A DNA stretch of 64,000 nt, taken from the NCBI GenBank assembly GCA_944392235.1, contig CALXVZ010000002.1, positions 73,288 to 137,287 of the forward strand, given 5' to 3'. Positions 13,817 through 23,852 of the stretch are shown here, piece after piece. The first letter of the stretch is position 1. Each line of letters starts with the position of its first letter. A model generated the notes under the pieces. That model was not told the DNA's origin. It worked only from the letters and a program-made list of their open reading frames with translations, and did no database searches. This DNA is from an uncultured Alphaproteobacteria bacterium (GTDB taxonomy: Bacteria; Pseudomonadota; Alphaproteobacteria; RF32; CAG-239). The translations under genes were made by a program, and so were the position numbers.

Positions 13817-13892
13817 AGGGGTATAGCTCAGTTGGTAGAGCACCGGTCTCCAAAACCGGGTGTCGTGAGTTCGAATCTTACTGCCCCTGCCA
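13817..13892 (+). tRNA. tRNA-Trp (anticodon CCA)
   Basis: Hand-folded cloverleaf: acceptor AGGGGTA/TGCCCCT, D-arm GCTCAGTTGGTAGAGC, anticodon loop CTCCAAA, T-arm GTGAG-TTCGAAT-CTTAC, discriminator G, encoded CCA. Canonical position upstream of secE-nusG. Confidence 0.9.
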
Positions 13893-13926
13893 CTTAAGAT
13901 GAAGACGCTGAAAAGCGTCTTTTTTC
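13884..13926. repeat. direct repeat copy 0 (tRNA-Trp 3' end CCCCTGCCA + CTTAAGATGAAGACGCTGAAAAGCGTCTTTTTT), att-core-like
   Basis: The same ~43 bp recurs at 15081-15122 (identical) and 16031-16072 (3 mismatches). Confidence 0.85.
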
Positions 13927-13930
13927 TTTT
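13901..13930 (+). terminator. rho-independent terminator downstream of tRNA-Trp (part of repeat copy 0)
   Basis: GAAGACGCtgaaaaGCGTCTTTtttcttt: 8-bp stem plus T-run. Confidence 0.6.
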
Positions 13931-13950
13931 TAAATCAATGCGTTATTCAA

Positions 13951-14000
13951 GTCCGTGTAGCGTGTATCAGTTGAGGTTGTCTCCCGCTTTTTACACGGAC
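13951..14000. repeat. cassette-leader inverted repeat GTCCGTGTAG...CTACACGGAC (copy 1)
   Basis: Perfect 9-10 bp arms with a ~32 nt loop. Homologous hairpins lie at the same relative position in cassettes 2 and 3. Confidence 0.7.
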
Positions 14001-14173
14001 TACACAAAATAAAATTCTTTGATTTACAAGAGGTTAATCCAGTATGAATCTGATTTTGTTTTGGGATTTTTGTTCTTTGAATAATAAATTTGCAAAAGAA
14101 AAATAATTGCGATAGACTTCGAAAAATAAGTAATTTAATCTTACAAAAGAGCAGTTCGATTGGGAATTTTGGC

Positions 14174-14641
14174 ATGATATATTTGGTTTATCCTGGATTA
14201 GGAAAAACTTTTTTAGCTAAAAAAGATGTTGGATTTTGTGATATTAATGTTCGCAAATTCAAGGATGCTGACTTTGATAATTATACTTCAAGTTATCGGG
14301 GAACTAAAATTAAAAATATAAATCCAGATTTTCCAAACAATTTACAAAGCTACCTATTGGATAAAATCAAGTTAAACATAATTATTTTAATGGCCTTTAA
14401 GAAAGCAACAATACAGCTCCTTGAGAATATGAAGCTTGATTATGAAATTGTTTTACCCGATGAATCAAAACTTGAAGAATTAAAAGACATCTATAAACAG
14501 CGTGGTGATAGTGATAAGTATATTGAGCAAAATACAACCCATAGGTATAAGGAAACTTTATTTTTAGCCAGACAATCAGGAAAAGTCATTAGGTTTGTTG
14601 CAAAAGGTTTGTGGTTAGAAGATGTTATTATGGAAAAATAG
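14174..14641 (+). CDS. cassette 1 cargo: small P-loop (PGxGKT) kinase-like protein, unknown function
   Basis: YPGLGKTFLAKKD P-loop-like motif near the N-terminus. ~155 aa if ATG 14174 is used (the track alternative is 14090). No further recognisable family. Confidence 0.4.
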   Translation: MIYLVYPGLGKTFLAKKDVGFCDINVRKFKDADFDNYTSSYRGTKIKNINPDFPNNLQSYLLDKIKLNIIILMAFKKATIQLLENMKLDYEIVLPDESKLEELKDIYKQRGDSDKYIEQNTTHRYKETLFLARQSGKVIRFVAKGLWLEDVIMEK

Positions 14642-14756
14642 TTGAGATGAGTTTTACAACCATATTTAATGAAGAAATTGATGTGCTTTGTACTGATTGT
14701 ATGGTCATGGATAATAAAAAGTTTATGGCTTAATTGATTAAAAGGAAAAACAAATA

Positions 14757-15053
14757 ATGAAGGTCATTACAATTTGCGGTTCTTTGAAATTTGAGAAAGA
14801 TATTAAATATTGGGCGGAAAAATTGACCTTAGAGGGAAATTGTGTCTTATCAATTATCTATCCTATCAGTACAGATTTAGGTGTTTATACTTCTGAACAA
14901 CGAAGTTTTTTTGCCGAAGCTCATTACAAAAGAATAGATTTATCTGATGCCCTTTTTGTTGTTAATAAAAATGGATACATCGGCGATAGTACTCAAAAAG
15001 AGATTGAATATGCAAAGGCTCGCGGAAAGGAAGTTATCTTCTTGGAAAATTGA
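14757..15053 (+). CDS. cassette 2 cargo: nucleoside 2-deoxyribosyltransferase-like (Rossmann/SLOG-type) small protein
   Basis: 98 aa. N-terminal MKVITICGSL and C-terminal DALFVVNKNGYIGDSTQKEIEYAKARGKEVIFLE match the D...G..G.T..E..YA...GK.V signature of Nuc_deoxyrib_tr-like proteins. Confidence 0.55.
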   Translation: MKVITICGSLKFEKDIKYWAEKLTLEGNCVLSIIYPISTDLGVYTSEQRSFFAEAHYKRIDLSDALFVVNKNGYIGDSTQKEIEYAKARGKEVIFLEN

Positions 15054-15060
15054 AGAAATA

Positions 15061-15122
15061 GTCCGTATATTGTCCTATATCCCCTGCCACTTAAGATGAA
15101 GACGCTGAAAAGCGTCTTTTTT
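15061..15122. repeat. direct repeat copy 1 (cassette right end TAGTCCGTATATTGTCCTATAT + tRNA-3'-end/terminator core)
   Basis: 15081-15122 is identical to 13884-13925. The preceding 20 bp is shared with copy 2. Confidence 0.85.
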
Positions 15123-15145
15123 ATTATAAATCACAAGTCAGTTTA

Positions 15146-15195
15146 GTCCATGTAAGATATGTTTAATGAAGCCAATTCCCGCTTGTTACACGGAC
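15146..15195. repeat. cassette-leader inverted repeat GTCCATGTAA...TTACACGGAC (copy 2)
   Basis: Arms differ from copy 1 at 2 positions. Same position relative to the core repeat. Confidence 0.65.
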
Positions 15196-15329
15196 TTTCA
15201 TTTCTAAGTTTTTTTATTTTATAAGTGCTTAGCTAAGTGGGAATCCTATTAGGTTTCGGGATATTTTTGTTTTACAATAAAGGATTTTTCATTTACAATA
15301 TATCCTAGTTGAAAAAGGGGAGTTTTAGG

Positions 15330-16001
15330 ATGTCAATCTCAATAGAAGATGCAGAAAATATGGTTGATAATGTAAGGAAAAGGTGGATTGCACTTGGGCG
15401 TAAACCAGAGACCTTATATATGTATGACAATCATATAAAAGGTGCGGCAGTTGTTGCAAAAACAATAGCTACGCATTTGGAAAGCATAAATCCAGAACAA
15501 GCCTATGTTTGCGCTTTTTTACATGATATTGCAAAAATTGATGAATCTCCAGAATCTATGCTTGGGCGCTTTCATGGGATATTAGGATATGAAATGTTAA
15601 AAGATAAAGATTCCGCTGTTGCACGTGCGTGTTTATTACATGAAATTCCTTTAAATAGAATTACAAAATATACAGAAGCAAAATTTTTAGGTAATACAAA
15701 AGATTTTGATTTTGTCGTTGATTTTATCTCCAACACATCTTTAACTGATGAAGATATGCTTATCCAACTTTCAGATAGCATGGCTAATAAATCAAGTATT
15801 GTAACATTGGAACAGCGGCAGGAAGAATATGAGGCAAGATTTAATAAAAAGTTGCCTCCTGAATTTACTGAACCATATTTAGAAATAAAAGCATATTTTG
15901 ATAAAAAATTAGGTTTTAATTTGTATGAGCTGTTTCCAAGCCTTAATCAAAATTCTAGAAATACATATAAAATAGTCACAGAAAATATTAGGTATCGGTA
16001 A
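15330..16001 (+). CDS. cassette 3 cargo: HD-domain phosphohydrolase
   Basis: H...AFLHDIAK HD motif. RBS AAAGGGGA 8 nt upstream of ATG 15330 (the track start is 15309). Confidence 0.6.
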   Translation: MSISIEDAENMVDNVRKRWIALGRKPETLYMYDNHIKGAAVVAKTIATHLESINPEQAYVCAFLHDIAKIDESPESMLGRFHGILGYEMLKDKDSAVARACLLHEIPLNRITKYTEAKFLGNTKDFDFVVDFISNTSLTDEDMLIQLSDSMANKSSIVTLEQRQEEYEARFNKKLPPEFTEPYLEIKAYFDKKLGFNLYELFPSLNQNSRNTYKIVTENIRYR

Positions 16002-16009
16002 ATGAGGTA

Positions 16010-16078
16010 GTCCGTATATTATCCTATAAGCCCTGCCATTCAAGATGAAGACGCTGAAAAGCATCTTTTTTTCTTTTT
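16010..16078. repeat. direct repeat copy 2 (GTCCGTATATTATCCTATAAG + CCCTGCCATTCAAGATGAAGACGCTGAAAAGCATCTTTTTTT), slightly degenerate
   Basis: 3 substitutions relative to copies 0/1; the terminator stem carries one mismatch. Confidence 0.8.
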
Positions 16079-16097
16079 AAATCAATGCGTTATTCAA

Positions 16098-16147
16098 GTC
16101 CATATAGCGTGTATCCATTGAGATTGTTTTTCTCTTGATACACGGAC
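16098..16147. repeat. cassette-leader inverted repeat GTCCATATAG...TACACGGAC (copy 3)
   Basis: The ~95 bp after the repeat (16078-16170) is ~85% identical to 13930-14020. Confidence 0.65.
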
Positions 16148-16315
16148 CGCTCAAAATAAAATTTGTTGTTTTTTAAATAGTTAGCATGGTGAAACCTGAT
16201 TTTGTGGAGTTTATGCTCTAATTTTTTGATAGACTGACAGTCATTATTTATTGACACGATTATTCTTTTGTGCTATATACAATAATGAAGTTTATTCTAT
16301 ATGAGGAGAAATAAA

Positions 16316-16756
16316 ATGACTGAATATATTAAGTATTCAAATGATGAGGAACATGCTAATTTGTTTCTAAAAGTTGAGGATGATAAAGTTGTTGATTCTG
16401 TGAGAGATAAAGTTTATGCCGATAGGTATGGCCATAGTATTACCAGAAATTTGATTGGTATGAATATGGCTGATGTTGAGGAAATAATGAATTATGATGA
16501 TAAAATGTCTGCTCCTCAAAAGATTAGTGTTAAAGAGTTTTTAGAAGCAAAATCTAACTTTTTGAAAATTCAAAAAAAGGAGCATCAAATTGATGTTGCA
16601 AGAGCTAATACAACAAGAATACAAGATACAGGTACAGATAAATTGGCAGAAAAAGAACGAAAATTAAAGCGCAAATTAAATCCTGACCGTTATGAAAGTG
16701 AAGAAGCTATGGTTGACCAAAGAGTAAAAATTGCAAAAAAATATATGACTCGATAG
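16316..16756 (+). CDS. cassette cargo: hypothetical lysine-rich protein, unknown function
   Basis: RBS AGGAG 7 nt upstream of ATG 16316. No recognisable domain. Confidence 0.4.
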   Translation: MTEYIKYSNDEEHANLFLKVEDDKVVDSVRDKVYADRYGHSITRNLIGMNMADVEEIMNYDDKMSAPQKISVKEFLEAKSNFLKIQKKEHQIDVARANTTRIQDTGTDKLAEKERKLKRKLNPDRYESEEAMVDQRVKIAKKYMTR

Positions 16757-16789
16757 ATTTTTGAGCTAATTGTCGTAATTGGTTATTGA

Positions 16790-16878
16790 GCAAAAGGTGA
16801 AGGTTCGAAACCGGCAAGAGAGTTCGATGCTGAGGCTCACGAAAAACACGAAAAAGAAGTTATCTTTTGGGAAAATTA
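16790..16878 (+). pseudogene. decayed 3' fragment of a second deoxyribosyltransferase-like cassette gene
   Basis: Reads AKGEGSKPAREFDAEAHEKHEKEVIFWEN* against the intact GDSTQKEIEYAKARGKEVIFLEN* of the 14757..15053 protein. Preceded by an in-frame stop at 16787. Confidence 0.5.
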
Positions 16879-16894
16879 AAAGTATATGCAGATG

Positions 16895-16930
16895 AAAAAA
16901 CCCGTAGAACAATAGTATCCACGGGTTTTT
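16895..16930. terminator. weak bidirectional hairpin terminator candidate
   Basis: aaaaaaCCCGTagaacaatagtatccACGGGttttt: 5-bp stem, long loop, flanking A/T runs. Confidence 0.3.
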
Positions 16931-17285
16931 GTTAAGTTAATAATTCCAGTTAATTAACACATACAGTCTTTAGGACAAAAAACTCCAAGGATTTGACTGT
17001 ATTCCTAAACTCTTGTTGGTGAACGGATCTTTACATCGAGGAAAATCCATCTAATGCCACTTAGAACTACAATTACTTTCCTCTTTAAGTAATTTAGCAC
17101 TAGAAAGAGTAAATATTGGGGTTCACCATAATCCTGAATTATTTTTAACTGGGATATTACATAAATAGTAAGAGCCAATAAACAAAGCAGGATTAGTATT
17201 CCACAGTAATTCATAAATTATAAGATTTATCGTCACTAAGCTATAAAAATTAAAAATAAAAGTCAATGTTTTATTATTGATAAAA

Positions 17286-17350
17286 GTCCCTGGATTATCC
17301 TATATTCCCTACCAATAAAAAAGGAAGTCTTAAAAGAGACTTCCTTTTTT
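17286..17350. repeat. degenerate 4th copy of the cassette-end/tRNA-core repeat followed by a perfect terminator hairpin
   Basis: GTCCCTGGATTATCCTATATTCCCTACCA versus GTCCGTATATTGTCCTATATCCCCTGCCA, then GGAAGTCTtaaaagAGACTTCCtttttt. Same core+terminator architecture as copies 0-2. Confidence 0.6.
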
Positions 17351-17351
17351 A

Positions 17352-18161
17352 TTATAAAATATCTGTCATCATATTATCCTTTGAAGATTTCAAATTCATC
17401 TCGCTAAAACGTATGACAGATAGTTCTTGCTTAGAGCTTATTTTAAAGGCAATGACTGGATAGATTGTTTTTCCAATTAAATGCCCTACTAAAAAATCTT
17501 CGTTTTCTTGCGGATTTTTCAGCTCACCAGGAAAAAGATGTGTAACATTTAATTCATCATAAAAACGATGCAATGCACATGGATAAATAATATATTTTTT
17601 TCCTGTCTTTTGTGTTAAAAGCCAGATAGGTTCATCATAACTCGTTATTTTTAATTCTATGTTTTTTACTCCTTTAATAACTTCTTTAAAAGGAAAGTTA
17701 TTCAATATATCAGTCGGAGTCAAAAACAAGAGAGGACAATCAGTTCGATGCTCGTAATAACAACTCATCCCTAAAAACTGAGGAAGATAAATTTGTTCTC
17801 TTTTTTCAGAGATTGCAAACTTAGTTACAACGCTTTTACCTTTGATTTGCCACTGACGAAAAACGGAAGTCCACGCATTGGAATTATTTTTTTCTATAAA
17901 ATCATCAATATCAAATCCATTTCCTACATTGACGCTCTCGAGCGAGCAGAATTCATGATTAAATATCAAGTATTTAATATATTCTTTACCTAATATTGTC
18001 ATAGGGATAATCCATTGAGGTGTAACATCTGGAGAAGATGCTCTCAATATAATATCCTGCTCTCTGCATAATTTATATTCCAGTCCCTTTGCTTGAGAGC
18101 AAAGATAACCAACCAACGCTAAAATATCTTTAGCTTCGGTAATAAGTTCTATTGTCTTCAT
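17352..18161 (-). CDS. hypothetical protein (269 aa), island cargo
   Basis: No recognisable motif. Lies immediately downstream of the macro-domain gene on the same strand. Confidence 0.4.
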   Translation of the reverse strand: MKTIELITEAKDILALVGYLCSQAKGLEYKLCREQDIILRASSPDVTPQWIIPMTILGKEYIKYLIFNHEFCSLESVNVGNGFDIDDFIEKNNSNAWTSVFRQWQIKGKSVVTKFAISEKREQIYLPQFLGMSCYYEHRTDCPLLFLTPTDILNNFPFKEVIKGVKNIELKITSYDEPIWLLTQKTGKKYIIYPCALHRFYDELNVTHLFPGELKNPQENEDFLVGHLIGKTIYPVIAFKISSKQELSVIRFSEMNLKSSKDNMMTDIL

Positions 18162-18294
18162 AATATAATATTTTAATAGTTTAACATCATAATTTTATTT
18201 TACCTAAGTATATGGCTTCAAGGTAAAATGTAAAGAATTTATAATAAAAAAGGCTTTCCCTCCAAAGAGAAAGCCTTTCTTCATGTAGATAACA

Positions 18295-18903
18295 CTATTC
18301 AGGCAAGAGTCCCATTCCAATAAGCCATTCAGCTAAATTGATTTTCTTTTCGCCAGTTTCAATTTTAAAATCAAAAGATTGACTAGCTAAAACAGTTTCT
18401 GCCGGAACAGTTGAATTCCGAAAAATAACCAATCTGACCTCTTTCACGCAAGAATCAGGATAACGAGTACTAAACTGATCAATCGCAGAAAAAATCACCC
18501 GAGCAGATTGGTCCTGAGTTAAACGTCCTATAATGCCTGTTCCAAGTTCAGGAATAGCTATTCTACTAAACTTACGTTTATCAGCTTCTTGCAGAACACG
18601 CAAGATAGCCTCAAACACCACTCTGAACTGTTCAGACTTTCCAGCCCCTGCCGTCGCAACATGAGCCAACTGAATATTATTTTTTCCAGAATCTGTAATC
18701 ATAATCTCGCCATATTTTAACGGCTTTTTCTGCACAGCAAATTCGTAACGATCCAATCCTGAACACATTCCGTTTGCTGCTATTGCACCACCAACTCCGC
18801 CATAAGAAGCACCGTTTGTAAACTCCGGAACAACAATACAATCGACATTTTCCATAGCTATGTTACCATTTTTTACGATAACATCAACATTTCTAATCTT
18901 CAT
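18295..18903 (-). CDS. macro-domain (ADP-ribose binding/hydrolase) protein
   Basis: NVDCIVVPEFTNGASYGGVGGAIAANG matches the macro-domain N..A.....GGGV.GAI signature. Start preferred at MKIRNV (18903); the track start is 18978. Confidence 0.55.
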   Translation of the reverse strand: MKIRNVDVIVKNGNIAMENVDCIVVPEFTNGASYGGVGGAIAANGMCSGLDRYEFAVQKKPLKYGEIMITDSGKNNIQLAHVATAGAGKSEQFRVVFEAILRVLQEADKRKFSRIAIPELGTGIIGRLTQDQSARVIFSAIDQFSTRYPDSCVKEVRLVIFRNSTVPAETVLASQSFDFKIETGEKKINLAEWLIGMGLLPE

Positions 18904-19097
18904 AATCTGTAATCTTTTAGTTAGACATAATGATAATTGAACAAAAAGGAGTTTAACACAAAGAATCATCCTTTTCAAGAACTAAAGTAGCATAAATATC
19001 TCTTCGATAAAAATATTGACATTCGTTACTCTAACTATAAGATAAAATTCGATAAATTATAATTTATATATCATTTAACACCTAAAAATATAAGTTT

Positions 19098-19607
19098 ATG
19101 GAAAATTACGTATTATTACATGGCAACCATTACTATAAATGGTGGCATTTTTTTCTAAGAGATTCAGAGAAATATTTCCCCTATCCTATCGTTTACGAAG
19201 ATGGTTTGATAAGCAATTTAAAATCAGACAAAGAAAACAGAAAAGTCTGGGGCTTCATTTACAAGAAGCACATTATTTCTATTTACGCAGAGAAGATGTC
19301 CCCTAAAGAAGCCAGAGAATTCTGTAAGAAAAACATTTTCGCAGGAAAAAACTACTGTATAGTTCCGATAGCGATAATGAAAAAGATCCTACAAAACACT
19401 TCTCTTATCAACTCATTAATTAAGGAGTTAGGAGGAACTCTCATCGAATCTCAATGGTATATGGCTGCAAATGACCGCTGGCTGGATAAAGATTTTATAT
19501 TAGATAAAAAAATGTGCGGAGTTCATCCTCAAATCAAACCAGTAAGAAATTGCTGCTTCATTGATGAAGAAACAAACGCATATTTTTATCCGGCAATTGT
19601 GTTATAA
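19098..19607 (+). CDS. hypothetical protein (169 aa), island cargo
   Basis: No recognisable motif. Confidence 0.4.
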   Translation: MENYVLLHGNHYYKWWHFFLRDSEKYFPYPIVYEDGLISNLKSDKENRKVWGFIYKKHIISIYAEKMSPKEAREFCKKNIFAGKNYCIVPIAIMKKILQNTSLINSLIKELGGTLIESQWYMAANDRWLDKDFILDKKMCGVHPQIKPVRNCCFIDEETNAYFYPAIVL

Positions 19608-19612
19608 TTCGA

Positions 19613-19645
19613 AGGAGGTAAGATAACCATTCTTACCTCCTTTTA
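19613..19645 (+). terminator. rho-independent terminator
   Basis: AGGAGGTAAGataaccattCTTACCTCCTtttt: 10-bp stem. Confidence 0.6.
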
Positions 19646-19865
19646 CACAACTTGAACCATTTAAATTCCATTTTCCGACATCTCAACTCAAAGTCTCAAG
19701 CTATTAATTGAGCAAACAAATAATATATTTATTGACATCTAAAAAATAATTTACTATGTTTCTCGCATTAGTATGGGTATATAAAAACGAGAACATTCTA
19801 CCAAAATGAAATAATCGCAGTAATATATCCTACCATTTTTCAAACATTAATAGAGTGGAAGAGCT

Positions 19866-20057
19866 ATGGGAAACACAAGTCCGATACAATTTTTTAGACA
19901 AGTTAAACAAGAAGTAAAAAAGGTTACATGGCCATCTAAAAAAGAAGTAACACGAGCAACAATTATGGTAATGATAATCGTTGCAATTGCTTCTGCATTT
20001 TTCTTCTGTGTAGATATGATATTTGCCGCCATAGTTCGTGCAATATTTGAATATTAG
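19866..20057 (+). CDS. secE: preprotein translocase subunit SecE
   Basis: 63 aa with a single C-terminal TM helix (KKVTWPSKKEV...). Immediately upstream of nusG. Confidence 0.85.
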   Translation: MGNTSPIQFFRQVKQEVKKVTWPSKKEVTRATIMVMIIVAIASAFFFCVDMIFAAIVRAIFEY

Positions 20058-21539: not shown

Positions 21540-22346
21540 ATGATTTTCGAAAATGCAAAAACTCTTTTAAAAAGAGAATATGAAAAATATTACAATATAT
21601 CCTCAGCACACGCCCAAAAAGTTATGAATGAAAAAACACGCCATTCATACCAAGTACTAGGAGTAGGAAATTACCTATTAAAGCACGAAGCTTGCTTTAA
21701 TACGGCATCACCTGAAGAAGTAACACGTTTAAAAGCAACCGTTCTTTTACATGATATTGGCCGTTTCTATGAAGTTTATAGAGAAGGTTTTGATGAAAAA
21801 GTAGACCATGGAGAATATGGTGCACAATTATTAGAAACCATCCCTCTTTACAAAGATATAAGAATAACTCTACCTATAAAGCACCATGGTCATCTAATCA
21901 AAAATCTATACAAAGATGAGACATACATCGACTTAGATGCAACGAAAAAAAAAGAAATAGAAAAAATAATTTATTTAGTAAGAGATTCAGATAAAATCGC
22001 CAACTTTTACTTACTTTCAAGAGAATTCCCAGACATGGAAGAGCTTTTTTTCTTTGCTCAACGCATGGATATAGGAAGCCAAGAAATATCTCAAGAAGTA
22101 TGGCATGATTTTTTAAATCACACAGAAGTTAATATAAACAATGTCCACACAGCAGCAGAAAACGCTTTAATGATACTAGCCTGTGCTTTTGATATAAGAT
22201 ATATCTCCTCATATCAACTGTTACAAAAAACACAAATGCTAACAAAACTATATAACTATATGAAAAAATTTTGGACAGAGAAAGATGCTGAAATTTGTTG
22301 GACTGAAATAAATCATCACATAAAAAAGAAATTAAGCAATTTATAA
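21540..22346 (+). CDS. HD-domain phosphohydrolase (unknown substrate)
   Basis: H...LLHDIGRF HD motif. Confidence 0.55.
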   Translation: MIFENAKTLLKREYEKYYNISSAHAQKVMNEKTRHSYQVLGVGNYLLKHEACFNTASPEEVTRLKATVLLHDIGRFYEVYREGFDEKVDHGEYGAQLLETIPLYKDIRITLPIKHHGHLIKNLYKDETYIDLDATKKKEIEKIIYLVRDSDKIANFYLLSREFPDMEELFFFAQRMDIGSQEISQEVWHDFLNHTEVNINNVHTAAENALMILACAFDIRYISSYQLLQKTQMLTKLYNYMKKFWTEKDAEICWTEINHHIKKKLSNL

Positions 22347-22550
22347 ATATAATTATTTTTTTACTCTCAAACACAAAAAAGCAAAAATATAAGTTAGGCT
22401 ATTTTTTATTATGATATAAATAAAAAGACCAATAACATTTTCATCAGATTTAGCTGTGTTTGTGCATTAAATTTATGTTGTTTTTAATTTTAAATATTGA
22501 TAATCTAAGGCTAGATTTTTGCAATAACCTATATAAAAAGGAAAATAAAG

Positions 22551-23852
22551 ATGTTGGATATAAAATTTATAATAGAAAATCCTGAATTGGTAAAAGAAGG
22601 ATTAGCTAAAAAAGGATACACTGAAGAACAAATCAACATAGATGATTTAATTAGTTTACACAAAGATATAAATAAACTAAAAACATCCACTCAAGCATTA
22701 GCTGAAGAAAAAAATAAACTTAGCAATTCTATTAAATCCGCATCAACAGAAGAACGTCCATCAATAATTGCAAAAAGTAAAGAATTAGGAGAAGAATTAA
22801 AGAAAGAACAAGAATTATTAGCTGCAGAGCAAGAAAAATTTGACTATATTATGTGGAGAATGCCAAACTTACCTTGCCCAGATTCTCCAATAGGACCTGA
22901 CGAGTCTGGAAACATTATCCTAAGAAAAGTCGGAGAGCCAACGAAATTTGACTTCACACCGAAAGATCATATAGAGTTAATGGAACTAAATGATTGGTCT
23001 GAACTAGAACGTATTACAAAAGTTTCCGGCGCCCGCACATATGCTATAAAAAATGAATTATCGCGCCTAGAATTAGCTATGCACATGCTCGTGTTAGATA
23101 AATTAAGTGAACATGGATTTACAACAATCACCGTTCCTTCATTATCAAAGCAAAAACCCCTTTATGGCATGGGCTACTTACCATTTTCAAAAGATGAAGT
23201 ATACTATATGCCAGCGGATGATTTGTATCTATCAGGCACCGCCGAATTAGTATTGAATTCTCTAAGAGCTGATGAAATATTATCTGAAAACGATCTACCA
23301 GTATTATATGCAGGTTTCTCTCCATGCTTCCGCCGTGAAGCCGGAGCAGCCGGGAAGGATACAAGAGGTTTAGTTCGCGTTCACCAATTCTTAAAGACAG
23401 AACAATTCGTTATCTGCAAAAATGATATCGCTGAAAGTGAAAAATGGCATAAAACCCTATTAGCTATCTCTGAAGAAGTATTACAAGACTTAGAATTACC
23501 TTATCAGGTACTAGAGATTTGCACTGGTGATATGGGAGCTCCTAAATATCGTCAATACGACTTAGAGGCTTGGACACCTTCACAAAATTGTTATAGAGAA
23601 ACCCATTCATGCTCAAACATTACAGAATGGCAAGCTCGTAGAACAAATTTAAGATACAGAGACAATAAAGACGGCAAAGTAAAATTTGTTCATACATTAA
23701 ACAATACAGGCATAGCAACACCACGTATATTAGTTCCGTTTATTGAAAACCATCAGCAATCCGACTACACCGTTAGAATTCCTGAAAAATTGCAACCATA
23801 TATGAACGGAAAGAAATATATTGGTAAAAATGCTAAAAATAAAAACGCATAA
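22551..23852 (+). CDS. serS: seryl-tRNA synthetase
   Basis: 433 aa. N-terminal coiled coil and class II core (GFSPCFRREAGAAGKDTRGLVRVHQF). Confidence 0.95.
   Translation: MLDIKFIIENPELVKEGLAKKGYTEEQINIDDLISLHKDINKLKTSTQALAEEKNKLSNSIKSASTEERPSIIAKSKELGEELKKEQELLAAEQEKFDYIMWRMPNLPCPDSPIGPDESGNIILRKVGEPTKFDFTPKDHIELMELNDWSELERITKVSGARTYAIKNELSRLELAMHMLVLDKLSEHGFTTITVPSLSKQKPLYGMGYLPFSKDEVYYMPADDLYLSGTAELVLNSLRADEILSENDLPVLYAGFSPCFRREAGAAGKDTRGLVRVHQFLKTEQFVICKNDIAESEKWHKTLLAISEEVLQDLELPYQVLEICTGDMGAPKYRQYDLEAWTPSQNCYRETHSCSNITEWQARRTNLRYRDNKDGKVKFVHTLNNTGIATPRILVPFIENHQQSDYTVRIPEKLQPYMNGKKYIGKNAKNKNA

What the first reader, a model, noticed from the sequence alone, without database searches (positions are those of the whole stretch)
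13893..19865. No recombinase anywhere in or near the array: cassettes would need a trans-acting integrase
None of the ORFs between tRNA-Trp and secE, nor any ORF in the 64-kb window, shows tyrosine/serine recombinase or transposase motifs. Yet the repeat structure implies repeated site-specific recombination at a ~43-bp core. This is analogous to integron cassettes or cis-mobilisable elements that depend on an integrase encoded elsewhere. Finding that enzyme would define the system.
Basis: inference. Interest (0 to 1): 0.55.

Follow-up and report, generated by a model that had tools for sequence, protein, structure and literature searches.

The report
Recombinase-less cassette array at tRNA-Trp
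Three small gene cassettes sit head to tail behind the tRNA-Trp gene of an uncultured chicken-gut alphaproteobacterium and encode no recombinase, but full-length relatives with the same ends in other genomes carry a large serine recombinase, so this is probably a stack of non-autonomous passengers of a known kind of mobile element.

Summary
No tyrosine or serine recombinase and no transposase was found between tRNA-Trp and secE, or anywhere on the window's contig. This was tested with Pfam, NCBIfam, PHROGs and PADLOC on the ORFs, six-frame family searches of the genome, and one fold search.

The interpretation needs two corrections.

1. The recombination site is the last 9 bases of the tRNA (CCCCTGCCA), not a 43-bp core. 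The other 33 bases are a terminator that each cassette carries at its own left end. The same HD cassette (about 98% identical) is followed in three genomes by three unrelated sequences, and the break falls right after CCCCTGCCA.

2. The likely enzyme is a roughly 530-aa large serine recombinase (LSR), not an IntI-like tyrosine integrase. A 16-kb element in a relative has the same left and right ends at tRNA-Trp. Its only recombinases are this LSR and a small resolvase. A sister LSR clade sits in a 9.4-kb element of the same design at tRNA-Gln.

This genome is 77% complete. Its only LSR is a 38%-identical paralogue beside tRNA-Thr, so the cognate enzyme was not found here.

The closest known systems are the Dehalococcoides ssrA islands, staphylococcal SCC and pseudo-SCC elements, and streptococcal cis-mobilisable elements (CIMEs).

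The parts
13817..13892 (+). tRNA-Trp (CCA). Its last 9 bases, CCCCTGCCA (13884-13892), are the inferred attachment and crossover block.
   Evidence: ARAGORN and Rfam. In other genomes the shared cassettes break exactly at CCCCTGCCA.
13893..15089 (+). Cassette 1. It consists of its own terminator (13893-13925), a leader with the inverted repeat AGTCCGTGTA..TACACGGACT (13950-14001), a 183-aa ORF (14090-14641), a 98-aa ORF (14757-15053), the right end AGTCCGTATATTGTCCTATAT (15060-15080) and CCCCTGCCA (15081-15089).
   Evidence: terminator. The whole unit is 85% identical over 1242 nt to one in L071, where it has a different left neighbour.
15090..16038 (+). Cassette 2. It consists of a terminator (15090-15122), a leader inverted repeat (15145-15196), a 230-aa HD-domain ORF (15309-16001), the right end (16009-16029) and GCCCTGCCA (16030-16038).
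   Evidence: Pfam HD, E = 3e-9. The cassette is 98.7% identical in L074 and 97.7% in L065, and each copy is followed by a different sequence right after CCCCTGCCA.
16039..17314 (+). Cassette 3, which is composite and decayed. It consists of a terminator (16039-16071), a degraded leader inverted repeat (16097-16148), a 151-aa ORF (16301-16756), a C-terminal remnant of a gene like the 98-aa ORF (about 16790-16880), a 69-aa ORF on the minus strand (17005-17214) and a decayed right end plus TCCCTACCA (17285-17314).
   Evidence: Repeat D4. The 151-aa part is found in L081, and the 69-aa part with the right end forms a separate cassette in L083.
17315..17350 (+). A-tract hairpin terminator of the type that follows the last CCCCTGCCA in relatives. 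It is read as the displaced original tRNA-Trp terminator and so as the end of the array.
   Evidence: The same type of terminator (ATAAAAA plus a GC hairpin) follows the right junction in G064, G023 and L084. This reading is an inference.
17352..19607 (.). Three ORFs beyond the array: 269 aa on the minus strand (unknown, beta-rich), 227 aa on the minus strand (Macro domain) and 169 aa on the plus strand (unknown). They have no cassette ends and no recombinase.
   Evidence: The 269-aa gene also lies beside the 151-aa gene in L081.
19866..20057 (+). secE, the conserved right flank of the variable region.
   Evidence: Pfam SecE, E = 5e-22. The distance from tRNA-Trp to secE varies from 0.66 to about 6 kb in the genus, and is about 20 kb in the family-level relative G064.

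Best explanation
The stretch is a tandem stack of three miniature, non-autonomous members of a family of integrative elements. The family inserts at the last bases (CCCCTGCCA) of tRNA-Trp.

Each unit brings four things:
- its own terminator for the tRNA;
- a leader of about 150 nt with an inverted repeat;
- one or two cargo genes;
- a 21-22-nt right end.

A new unit enters at the tRNA and pushes older units towards secE. That produces the repeated 'core' and the decay seen away from the tRNA.

The enzyme is most likely a roughly 530-aa large serine recombinase. Only the full-length members of the family encode it, so here it would have to act in trans, from a co-resident or transient full-length element. 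It was not found in this genome.

Shown: the anatomy, the exact breakpoint, the spread of identical cassettes between genera, and the presence of the LSR in full-length elements with the same ends.

Inferred: that the LSR is the enzyme, that it works in trans on the small units, and the order of insertion.
For: 1. Full-length element. In G064:C1 a 16.1-kb element runs: tRNA-Trp, CCCCTGCCA, terminator, the same leader inverted repeat, genes, the right end AGTCCGTATATTATCCTATAT, CCCCTGCCA. No other such junction lies inside it. Its recombinases are a 530-aa LSR (Resolvase, Recombinase and Zn_ribbon_recom domains) and a 204-aa resolvase. No PF00589 match lies on that contig.

2. LSRs of this clade in the tRNA-Trp-to-secE region. 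LSRs 67-99% identical to the G064 enzyme lie there, 2.6-3 kb upstream of a right end, in G062 (L084), G003 (L036, N-terminally truncated), G095 (L097) and G131 (L098). A 53% clade does so in G161.

3. Same design at another tRNA. In G068 a 9.4-kb element at tRNA-Gln is bounded by a 44-nt repeat of the tRNA end plus terminator. It has a leader inverted repeat (AGTCCGAAAT..TTCGGACT) and a right end (TAGTCCGCGGATTG..), and it carries an LSR 52% identical to the Trp-type enzyme. The LSR clades therefore appear to track the target tRNA; for the Gln clade only this one member was seen beside its tRNA.

4. Breakpoint. The HD cassette is 98.7% and 97.7% identical in L074 and L065. Each copy is followed by a different terminator immediately after CCCCTGCCA. 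L074's secE is only 62% identical to the window's, so that genome is from a distant relative.

5. Extent of the right end. In 15 distinct junctions conservation starts 21-22 nt before CCCCTGCCA and is absent further upstream. That gives a half-site of about 25 bp, the size of an LSR attP arm.

6. Motif shift. The motif AGTYCG starts 16 nt before CCCCTGCCA in the tRNA (its T-loop) and 21 nt before it in the right end. The matching figures at tRNA-Gln are 18 and 23 nt. PMC3783163 reports a 5-bp outward shift of the zinc-ribbon-domain motif in attP relative to attB.

7. Intact enzyme. The LSRs keep the catalytic ARVSS motif.

8. Spread. The right end plus CCCCTGCCA occurs in 20 of 151 genomes of the family, in 9 of 23 genera, with 0 hits for the reversed control pattern.
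Against: - No experiment links the LSR to these sites.
- LSRs are common in this family: 76 of 151 genomes have one. Their presence in a hot spot could therefore be coincidence.
- In G064 the LSR lies 2.8 kb from the right end rather than at an end.
- Most genomes with cassettes lack a close LSR. Of the 19 other sampled genomes with a right-end match, only 3 have one.
- The element side to the right of the crossover varies between cassettes, and no mirror motif was found there.
- The T-loop mimic is only GTYCG at tRNA-Gln, and the Trp and Gln systems are related, so the 5-bp shift counts as about one observation.
- The leader inverted repeat lies too far from the crossover to be part of an LSR attP, and its role is unexplained.
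Confidence: 0.55

Rival explanations
1. A tyrosine integrase acts in trans. The three AGTCCGTRTA motifs would be arm-type binding sites, and CCCCTGCCA would be the overlap region.
For: - tRNA 3' ends are classic targets of tyrosine integrases.
- A prophage with a 359-aa tyrosine integrase does use tRNA-Trp in this group, with a 54-nt att repeat.
- This genome has a 515-aa tyrosine integrase beside tRNA-Leu.
- Each cassette has three copies of one 10-mer.
Against: - No tyrosine recombinase lies in the full-length Trp or Gln elements.
- The phage integrase has no relative in 36 genomes of the genus. Its identity block ends at the CCA of the tRNA, so unlike the cassette repeat it does not continue into the terminator.
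- The right end is conserved for only 21-22 nt, which is short for an arm with arm-type sites.
- The tyrosine recombinases of this genome are XerC/D-like, a shufflon enzyme and one tied to tRNA-Leu.
Confidence: 0.12
2. The array is a fossil. Each unit was once a full element with its own recombinase and shrank in place by deletion. Nothing is mobilised in trans, and the array changes only by homologous recombination between the repeated leaders and cores.
For: - Cassette 3 is visibly composite, with a gene remnant.
- G003 has a truncated LSR inside the array.
- The repeats of 43 and about 150 nt could support RecA-dependent exchange.
- Contigs of related strains join leaders in other orders (a weak observation).
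Against: - The same small cassettes occur at 85-99% identity in other species and genera with other neighbours.
- They break exactly at CCCCTGCCA next to unrelated sequence.
- Homology-driven exchange within the repeats would not give that pattern, and neither would independent shrinkage.
Confidence: 0.15
3. Another protein does the job. Candidates are the small (about 200 aa) resolvase found in several larger cassettes, the 406-aa protein with a SAM-like N-terminus and an HTH_17 domain that sits beside the leader in full-length elements, or the host XerC/D recombinases as with IMEX or pdif modules.
For: - A resolvase is present in the G064 and G003 elements and in a 5.7-kb cassette without an LSR in L083.
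- This genome has three resolvases 56-59% identical to it.
- The 406-aa family lies directly downstream of tRNA-Trp, tRNA-Gln and tRNA-Glu in several genomes, including this one at tRNA-Gln.
- XerC/D-like proteins are present in this genome and in every genome searched. That would explain cassettes without a dedicated enzyme.
Against: - Resolvases with an HTH_7 domain normally resolve or invert rather than integrate, and here the resolvase travels with a methylase module found in either orientation.
- The 406-aa family shows no catalytic domain, and its model is poor, with pLDDT 49.
- No dif-like site with a 6-8-bp spacer fits the junction, and no dif site was found in the assembly.
Confidence: 0.1

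Closest known systems
Dehalococcoides ssrA genomic islands (McMurdie et al. 2011, PMC3146451)
   Same: - Tandem islands lie downstream of a single-copy tRNA-like gene and are bounded by short direct repeats of its 3' end.
- The integrase is a roughly 540-aa CcrB-like serine recombinase, accompanied by a serine recombinase of about 200 aa.
- Many of the islands lack the integration module, and the authors read these as cis-mobilisable elements.
   Different: - Here the target is a true tRNA (Trp, and Gln for a sister clade), the repeat is 9 bp, and the host is an alphaproteobacterium.
- The units are far smaller (0.9-1.3 kb, one or two genes). Each carries its own terminator and conserved leader.
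- The LSR lies inside the element rather than at attL.
- The LSR matches the CcrB and XisF models only far below their cut-offs.
Staphylococcal SCC elements and pseudo-SCC composite islands (CcrAB/CcrC); comparison from general knowledge
   Same: - Serine-recombinase cassettes stack in tandem at the 3' end of one conserved gene.
- Some units lack the recombinase genes and depend on Ccr proteins supplied in trans.
   Different: - The SCC target is a protein-coding gene (rlmH/orfX), and SCC units are 10-60 kb.
- There is no sequence kinship beyond the LSR superfamily.
CIMEs and site-specific accretion with ICEs or IMEs in streptococci (reviewed in PMC5704250)
   Same: These are non-autonomous units that keep their att sites, lie in tandem with autonomous elements, and are moved by the autonomous element's integrase.
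   Different: - The streptococcal systems use tyrosine integrases and conjugative transfer.
- No conjugation or mobilisation genes were seen in the cassettes here.
Tycheposons of Prochlorococcus (bioRxiv 10.1101/2020.12.28.424599)
   Same: - Cargo elements are specific for particular tRNAs, and the integrase clades track the target tRNA.
- Islands grow next to the tRNA from degraded elements.
   Different: - 910 of 937 tycheposons use tyrosine recombinases.
- Many of them carry replication modules, and they are not arrays of single-gene cassettes with uniform ends.
Integrons
   Same: Both are arrays of small cassettes, mostly of one gene, without a recombinase of their own.
   Different: - Here there is no attC hairpin site, no adjacent intI and no common promoter.
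- Insertion is at a tRNA end, and each cassette has its own terminator and leader.
- No integron integrase was found in the genome.

Membership tests
Integron | An IntI-type tyrosine integrase next to the array | tested here: not met
   There is no PF00589 match on the window's contig. The two Xer-like proteins score 119-122 bits against a cut-off of 265 for the integron-integrase model.
Integron | Cassettes bounded by attC sites (imperfect inverted repeats with RYYYAAC/GTTRRRY ends) | tested here: not met
   The junctions read: right end, CCCCTGCCA, terminator. No attC-type site appears in those sequences. This was judged by reading them, not with an attC model.
Large-serine-recombinase integrative elements (SCC or ssrA-island type) | Full-length members encode an LSR with Resolvase, Recombinase and zinc-ribbon domains and a catalytic serine | tested here: met
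   The 530-aa protein of G064 has all three domains and the ARVSS motif. This holds for relatives only, not for the window.
Large-serine-recombinase integrative elements (SCC or ssrA-island type) | Short identity at the crossover, with attP half-sites of about 25 bp and an attB motif shifted 5 bp inward | tested here: inconclusive
   The identity is 9 bp in G064. The right end is conserved for 21-22 nt. The left-arm motif is shifted by 5 bp at both Trp and Gln. No matching motif was found on the right arm.
Large-serine-recombinase integrative elements (SCC or ssrA-island type) | The LSR catalyses integration and excision at these sites | not testable with these tools
   This needs a recombination assay.
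Cis-mobilisable element (CIME) | The unit has att sites like those of an autonomous element but no recombination or transfer genes | tested here: met
   Cassettes 1-3 have the same ends as the 16-kb G064 element and no recombinase.
Cis-mobilisable element (CIME) | The unit is excised or moved by the integrase of a related element | not testable with these tools
   There is only indirect support: identical cassettes occur in different genera and array contexts.

The most novel reading that the evidence does not exclude
This is a serine-recombinase counterpart of the integron. A whole family of uncultured gut Alphaproteobacteria would use the 3' end of tRNA-Trp (and tRNA-Gln) as a shared docking site. 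Self-contained cassettes of one or two genes, each with its own terminator and leader, would be captured there, stacked and exchanged between genera by a dedicated LSR that is usually absent from the recipient genome.
Probability: 0.3. Interest if true: 0.65.

Novelty: new variant of a known kind. Interest (0 to 1): 0.45.

Why it matters
The host lineage is uncultured, and its gene flow is little studied. The result points to a defined, testable route of gene exchange in it: a 9-bp docking site, a minimal right end of 21-22 nt, and a candidate enzyme with tRNA-specific clades.

If the LSR works as proposed, it would extend the SCC and ssrA-island principle to true tRNA genes and to very small cassettes. 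It would also add LSR and att pairs with known natural targets.

For annotation, such arrays should be read as stacks of passengers of a serine-recombinase element. They are not integrons, and they are not remnants of a tyrosine-integrase island.

Tried and rejected
- **Phage records.** A GenBank phage search with the array matched only tRNA-Trp genes.
- **IMG/VR scans.** The right end gave no match. The leader motif matched one prophage contig. That contig is a separate tyrosine-integrase phage integrated in the same tRNA, and its integrase has no relative in the genus.
- **406-aa family.** Its structure model was too poor to search with (pLDDT 49).
- **269-aa ORF.** The ESM Atlas gave nothing usable, and Foldseek against the PDB gave no match at E <= 0.001.
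- **Known RNAs.** Rfam found none in the leaders or in the GC-rich segments.
- **Promoters.** Promoter-like sites in the array are no more frequent than in shuffled sequence, so a leader promoter is not shown.
- **dif site.** A search of this assembly found no dif-like site, so the Xer idea could not be tested.
- **Metagenome contigs.** Contigs from chicken-gut runs were laid on the array. The assemblies break at the repeats. The few joints have short sides or come from relatives of 90-95% identity. They show neither excision nor its absence.
- **Type-A LSR element of G028.** It shares only CTGCCA at its two ends and lacks the cassette right end, so it is a different element using the same tRNA.
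- **Empty attB site.** None was found. The shortest interval (G032, 663 bp) still starts with an element-type terminator. Five further genomes of the genus carry other insertions.

Full report
**What is in the window**

tRNA-Trp lies at 13817-13892 and secE at 19866-20057. Between them the sequence repeats a 43-nt block three times. The block is the last 9-10 bases of the tRNA followed by a hairpin terminator. It lies at 13883-13925, 15080-15122 and 16029-16071, and a decayed fourth junction lies at 17285-17350. The block is unique to this locus in the 1.29-Mb assembly.

Each interval has the same anatomy:
- a terminator;
- a leader of about 150 nt containing the inverted repeat AGTCCGTGTA..(32 nt)..TACACGGACT;
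- cargo;
- a right end AGTCCGTATATTRTCCTATAT, followed by CCCCTGCCA.

The cargo is as follows:
- Cassette 1: a 183-aa protein (PHROG of unknown function) and a 98-aa protein (weak nucleoside deoxyribosyltransferase match).
- Cassette 2: a 230-aa HD-domain protein.
- Cassette 3: a 151-aa unknown protein, a remnant of a second gene like the 98-aa one, and a 69-aa ORF.

**Is there a recombinase?**

None was found.
- Pfam, NCBIfam, PHROGs and PADLOC find none among the ORFs of 13893-19865.
They are a Macro-domain protein, a 269-aa protein with a confident beta-rich model and no PDB match, and a 169-aa protein with only hypothetical neighbours.
- Six-frame searches of the whole genome with the tyrosine-recombinase, serine-recombinase, rve, DDE_Tnp_1 and Y1 transposase families give no match on the window's contig.

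Elsewhere the genome has:
- XerC-like and XerD-like proteins, which are not integron integrases;
- a recombinase in an hsdS shufflon;
- a 515-aa tyrosine integrase abutting tRNA-Leu;
- a 514-aa large serine recombinase (LSR) convergent with tRNA-Thr, with a 99% identical partial copy on a small contig;
- small resolvases on contigs C4 (one clear and one weak match), C18 and C21.

The assembly is 77% complete.

**Who carries such cassettes**

Record titles identify the hosts as uncultured Alphaproteobacteria MAGs. The runs that hold this DNA are chicken-gut metagenomes.

The junction is found in 14 of 35 other species of the genus. The distance from tRNA-Trp to secE ranges from 0.66 to about 6 kb in the genus, with entirely different cargo in each. 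In the family-level relative G064 the distance is about 20 kb.

The right end plus CCCCTGCCA occurs in 20 of 151 sampled genomes of the family, in 9 of 23 genera, with no hit for the reversed control pattern.

**Where the exchange happens**

The HD cassette of the window recurs at 98.7% identity in L074 and 97.7% in L065. L074's secE is only 62% identical to the window's, so that genome is a distant relative.

In the three genomes the cassette's right end and CCCCTGCCA are followed by three unrelated sequences, each starting with a different terminator.

Cassette 1 recurs whole, at 85% identity, in L071 behind a different neighbour. Parts of cassette 3 are separate cassettes in L081 and L083.

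In the 16-kb element of G064 only CCCCTGCCA is repeated at the two ends.

Two conclusions follow. The crossover lies within these 9 bases. The 33-nt terminator belongs to the left end of each unit, and the '43-bp core' appears only because units of one terminator type are stacked.

The hairpin at 17315-17350 is of the type that follows the last junction in relatives. I read it as the displaced original terminator, which marks the end of the array. This is an inference.

**The candidate enzyme**

*The full-length element.* In G064 a single 16.1-kb element has exactly these ends at tRNA-Trp. Its genes, in order, are: an HTH_17 protein, a C5 methylase, a 204-aa resolvase, an autotransporter, a 530-aa LSR, and a PD-(D/E)XK protein. 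No tyrosine recombinase lies on that contig.

*LSRs of this clade in other arrays.* LSRs of the same clade (67-99% identical) lie in the tRNA-Trp-to-secE region, 2.6-3 kb before a right end, in four more genomes (G062, G003, G095, G131); together with G064 these span four genera. A 53% clade does so in a further genome of another genus, G161.

*The sister system at tRNA-Gln.* A sister clade, 52% identical, sits in a 9.4-kb element at tRNA-Gln. That element is built the same way: a 44-nt repeat of the tRNA end plus terminator, a leader inverted repeat AGTCCGAAAT..TTCGGACT, and a right end TAGTCCGCGGATTG...

*Intactness.* The enzymes keep the catalytic ARVSS motif.

*Fit to known LSR sites.* Two features of the sites fit what is known of LSRs.
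- The right end is conserved for only 21-22 nt before the crossover block, which gives a half-site of about 25 bp.
- The motif AGTYCG lies 5 bp further from the crossover in the right end than its counterpart, the T-loop, lies in the tRNA. This holds at both Trp and Gln. Rutherford et al. describe this shift for the zinc-ribbon-domain motif in attP versus attB (PMC3783163).

I treat the shift as suggestive only. At tRNA-Gln the match is short, and the two systems are related.

**What remains open**

- No LSR of the Trp clade was found in this genome. Its only LSR is 38% identical and tied to tRNA-Thr.
- Most genomes with cassettes also lack a close LSR.
- This fits rare, transient autonomous elements and many passengers. 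It equally fits an array that is now inert.
- The leader inverted repeat is too far from the crossover for an LSR attP, and its role is unknown.
- In full-length elements a protein with an excisionase-type HTH_17 domain is encoded beside the repeat. A 418-aa member of that family sits beside tRNA-Gln in this genome.
- It could be a directionality factor, but its model was too poor to test this.

**Comparison with known systems**

The nearest described system is the ssrA island array of Dehalococcoides. It has tandem islands bounded by a short repeat of the tmRNA 3' end, a roughly 540-aa CcrB-like serine recombinase with a second one of about 200 aa, and many islands without the integration module, which the authors read as cis-mobilisable elements (PMC3146451).

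Also related in principle are:
- staphylococcal SCC and pseudo-SCC composites;
- streptococcal CIME accretion (PMC5704250);
- the tRNA-specific tycheposons.

Three features differ here: the true tRNA target, the very small uniform cassettes each carrying its own terminator and leader, and the host group.

The integron analogy fails on its defining features (no attC, no IntI).

I rate this a new variant of a known kind, of moderate interest.

**Other users of the same tRNA end**

I saw three:
- a prophage with a tyrosine integrase and a 54-nt att repeat;
- an element of about 11.7 kb in G028 whose 506-aa LSR overlaps the tRNA end;
- tandem GC-rich units of about 176-180 nt that end in a 19-nt copy of the tRNA 3' end.

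Noticed in passing
L110, L111, L112, L032:8556-8915 and L056:9086-9270 (relatives; not in the window): Right after tRNA-Trp, several relatives carry one to several tandem copies of a GC-rich unit of about 176-180 nt. Each unit has its own terminator and ends in a 19-nt copy of the tRNA-Trp 3' end. It looks like a structured RNA or a tRNA-derived mini-element. No Rfam family matched the copy that was scanned (L056).
   Followed up: partly
Own genome, contig C4 about 21591-23564 (locus L049): tRNA-Gln(ttg) is followed by a terminator, an inverted repeat TTGTCCGAA..TTCGGACAA, a GC-rich segment of about 120 nt (no Rfam match), and a 418-aa protein with a SAM-like N-terminus and an HTH_17 domain. 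This layout matches the left part of the full-length Trp and Gln elements. Its right end was not found.
   Followed up: partly
Own genome, contig C17 6862-8469 (locus L008): A 514-aa large serine recombinase runs convergent with tRNA-Thr(ggt) and overlaps its 3' end. A GTCCG..(40 nt)..CGGAC inverted repeat lies inside the 3' end of the gene. A 99% identical partial copy lies on contig C28.
   Followed up: partly
L064 and L086 (IMG/VR contig of 39.5 kb): A prophage is integrated in tRNA-Trp with a 54-nt direct repeat that runs from the anticodon stem to the CCA. It carries a 359-aa tyrosine integrase that Pfam barely detects (E = 2e-6). A cassette leader follows directly after it.
   Followed up: yes
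L060 and L039 (G028:C7:1-11809): An element of about 11.7 kb sits at tRNA-Trp. It carries a 506-aa LSR overlapping the tRNA end, a 199-aa tyrosine recombinase consisting only of the catalytic domain, and an XRE/ImmA-like gene pair. Only CTGCCA is repeated at its far end.
   Followed up: partly
window 17352-18161 (minus strand): This 269-aa protein is conserved in about 19 metagenomic clusters. It has no Pfam family, a confident beta-rich model (pLDDT 79, pTM 0.81) and no match in the PDB, so it may have a new fold.
   Followed up: partly
L037, L083 and L096 (relatives): A module of a C5 cytosine methylase (636-716 aa) and a resolvase of about 200 aa occurs in larger cassettes in either orientation relative to the leader. 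It may be an invertible or separately mobile unit.
   Followed up: no
L040 (G035:C32): secE-nusG lie upstream of tRNA-Trp on the opposite strand. That is an inversion of the usual tRNA-Trp-to-secE arrangement, with one breakpoint at or near the tRNA.
   Followed up: no
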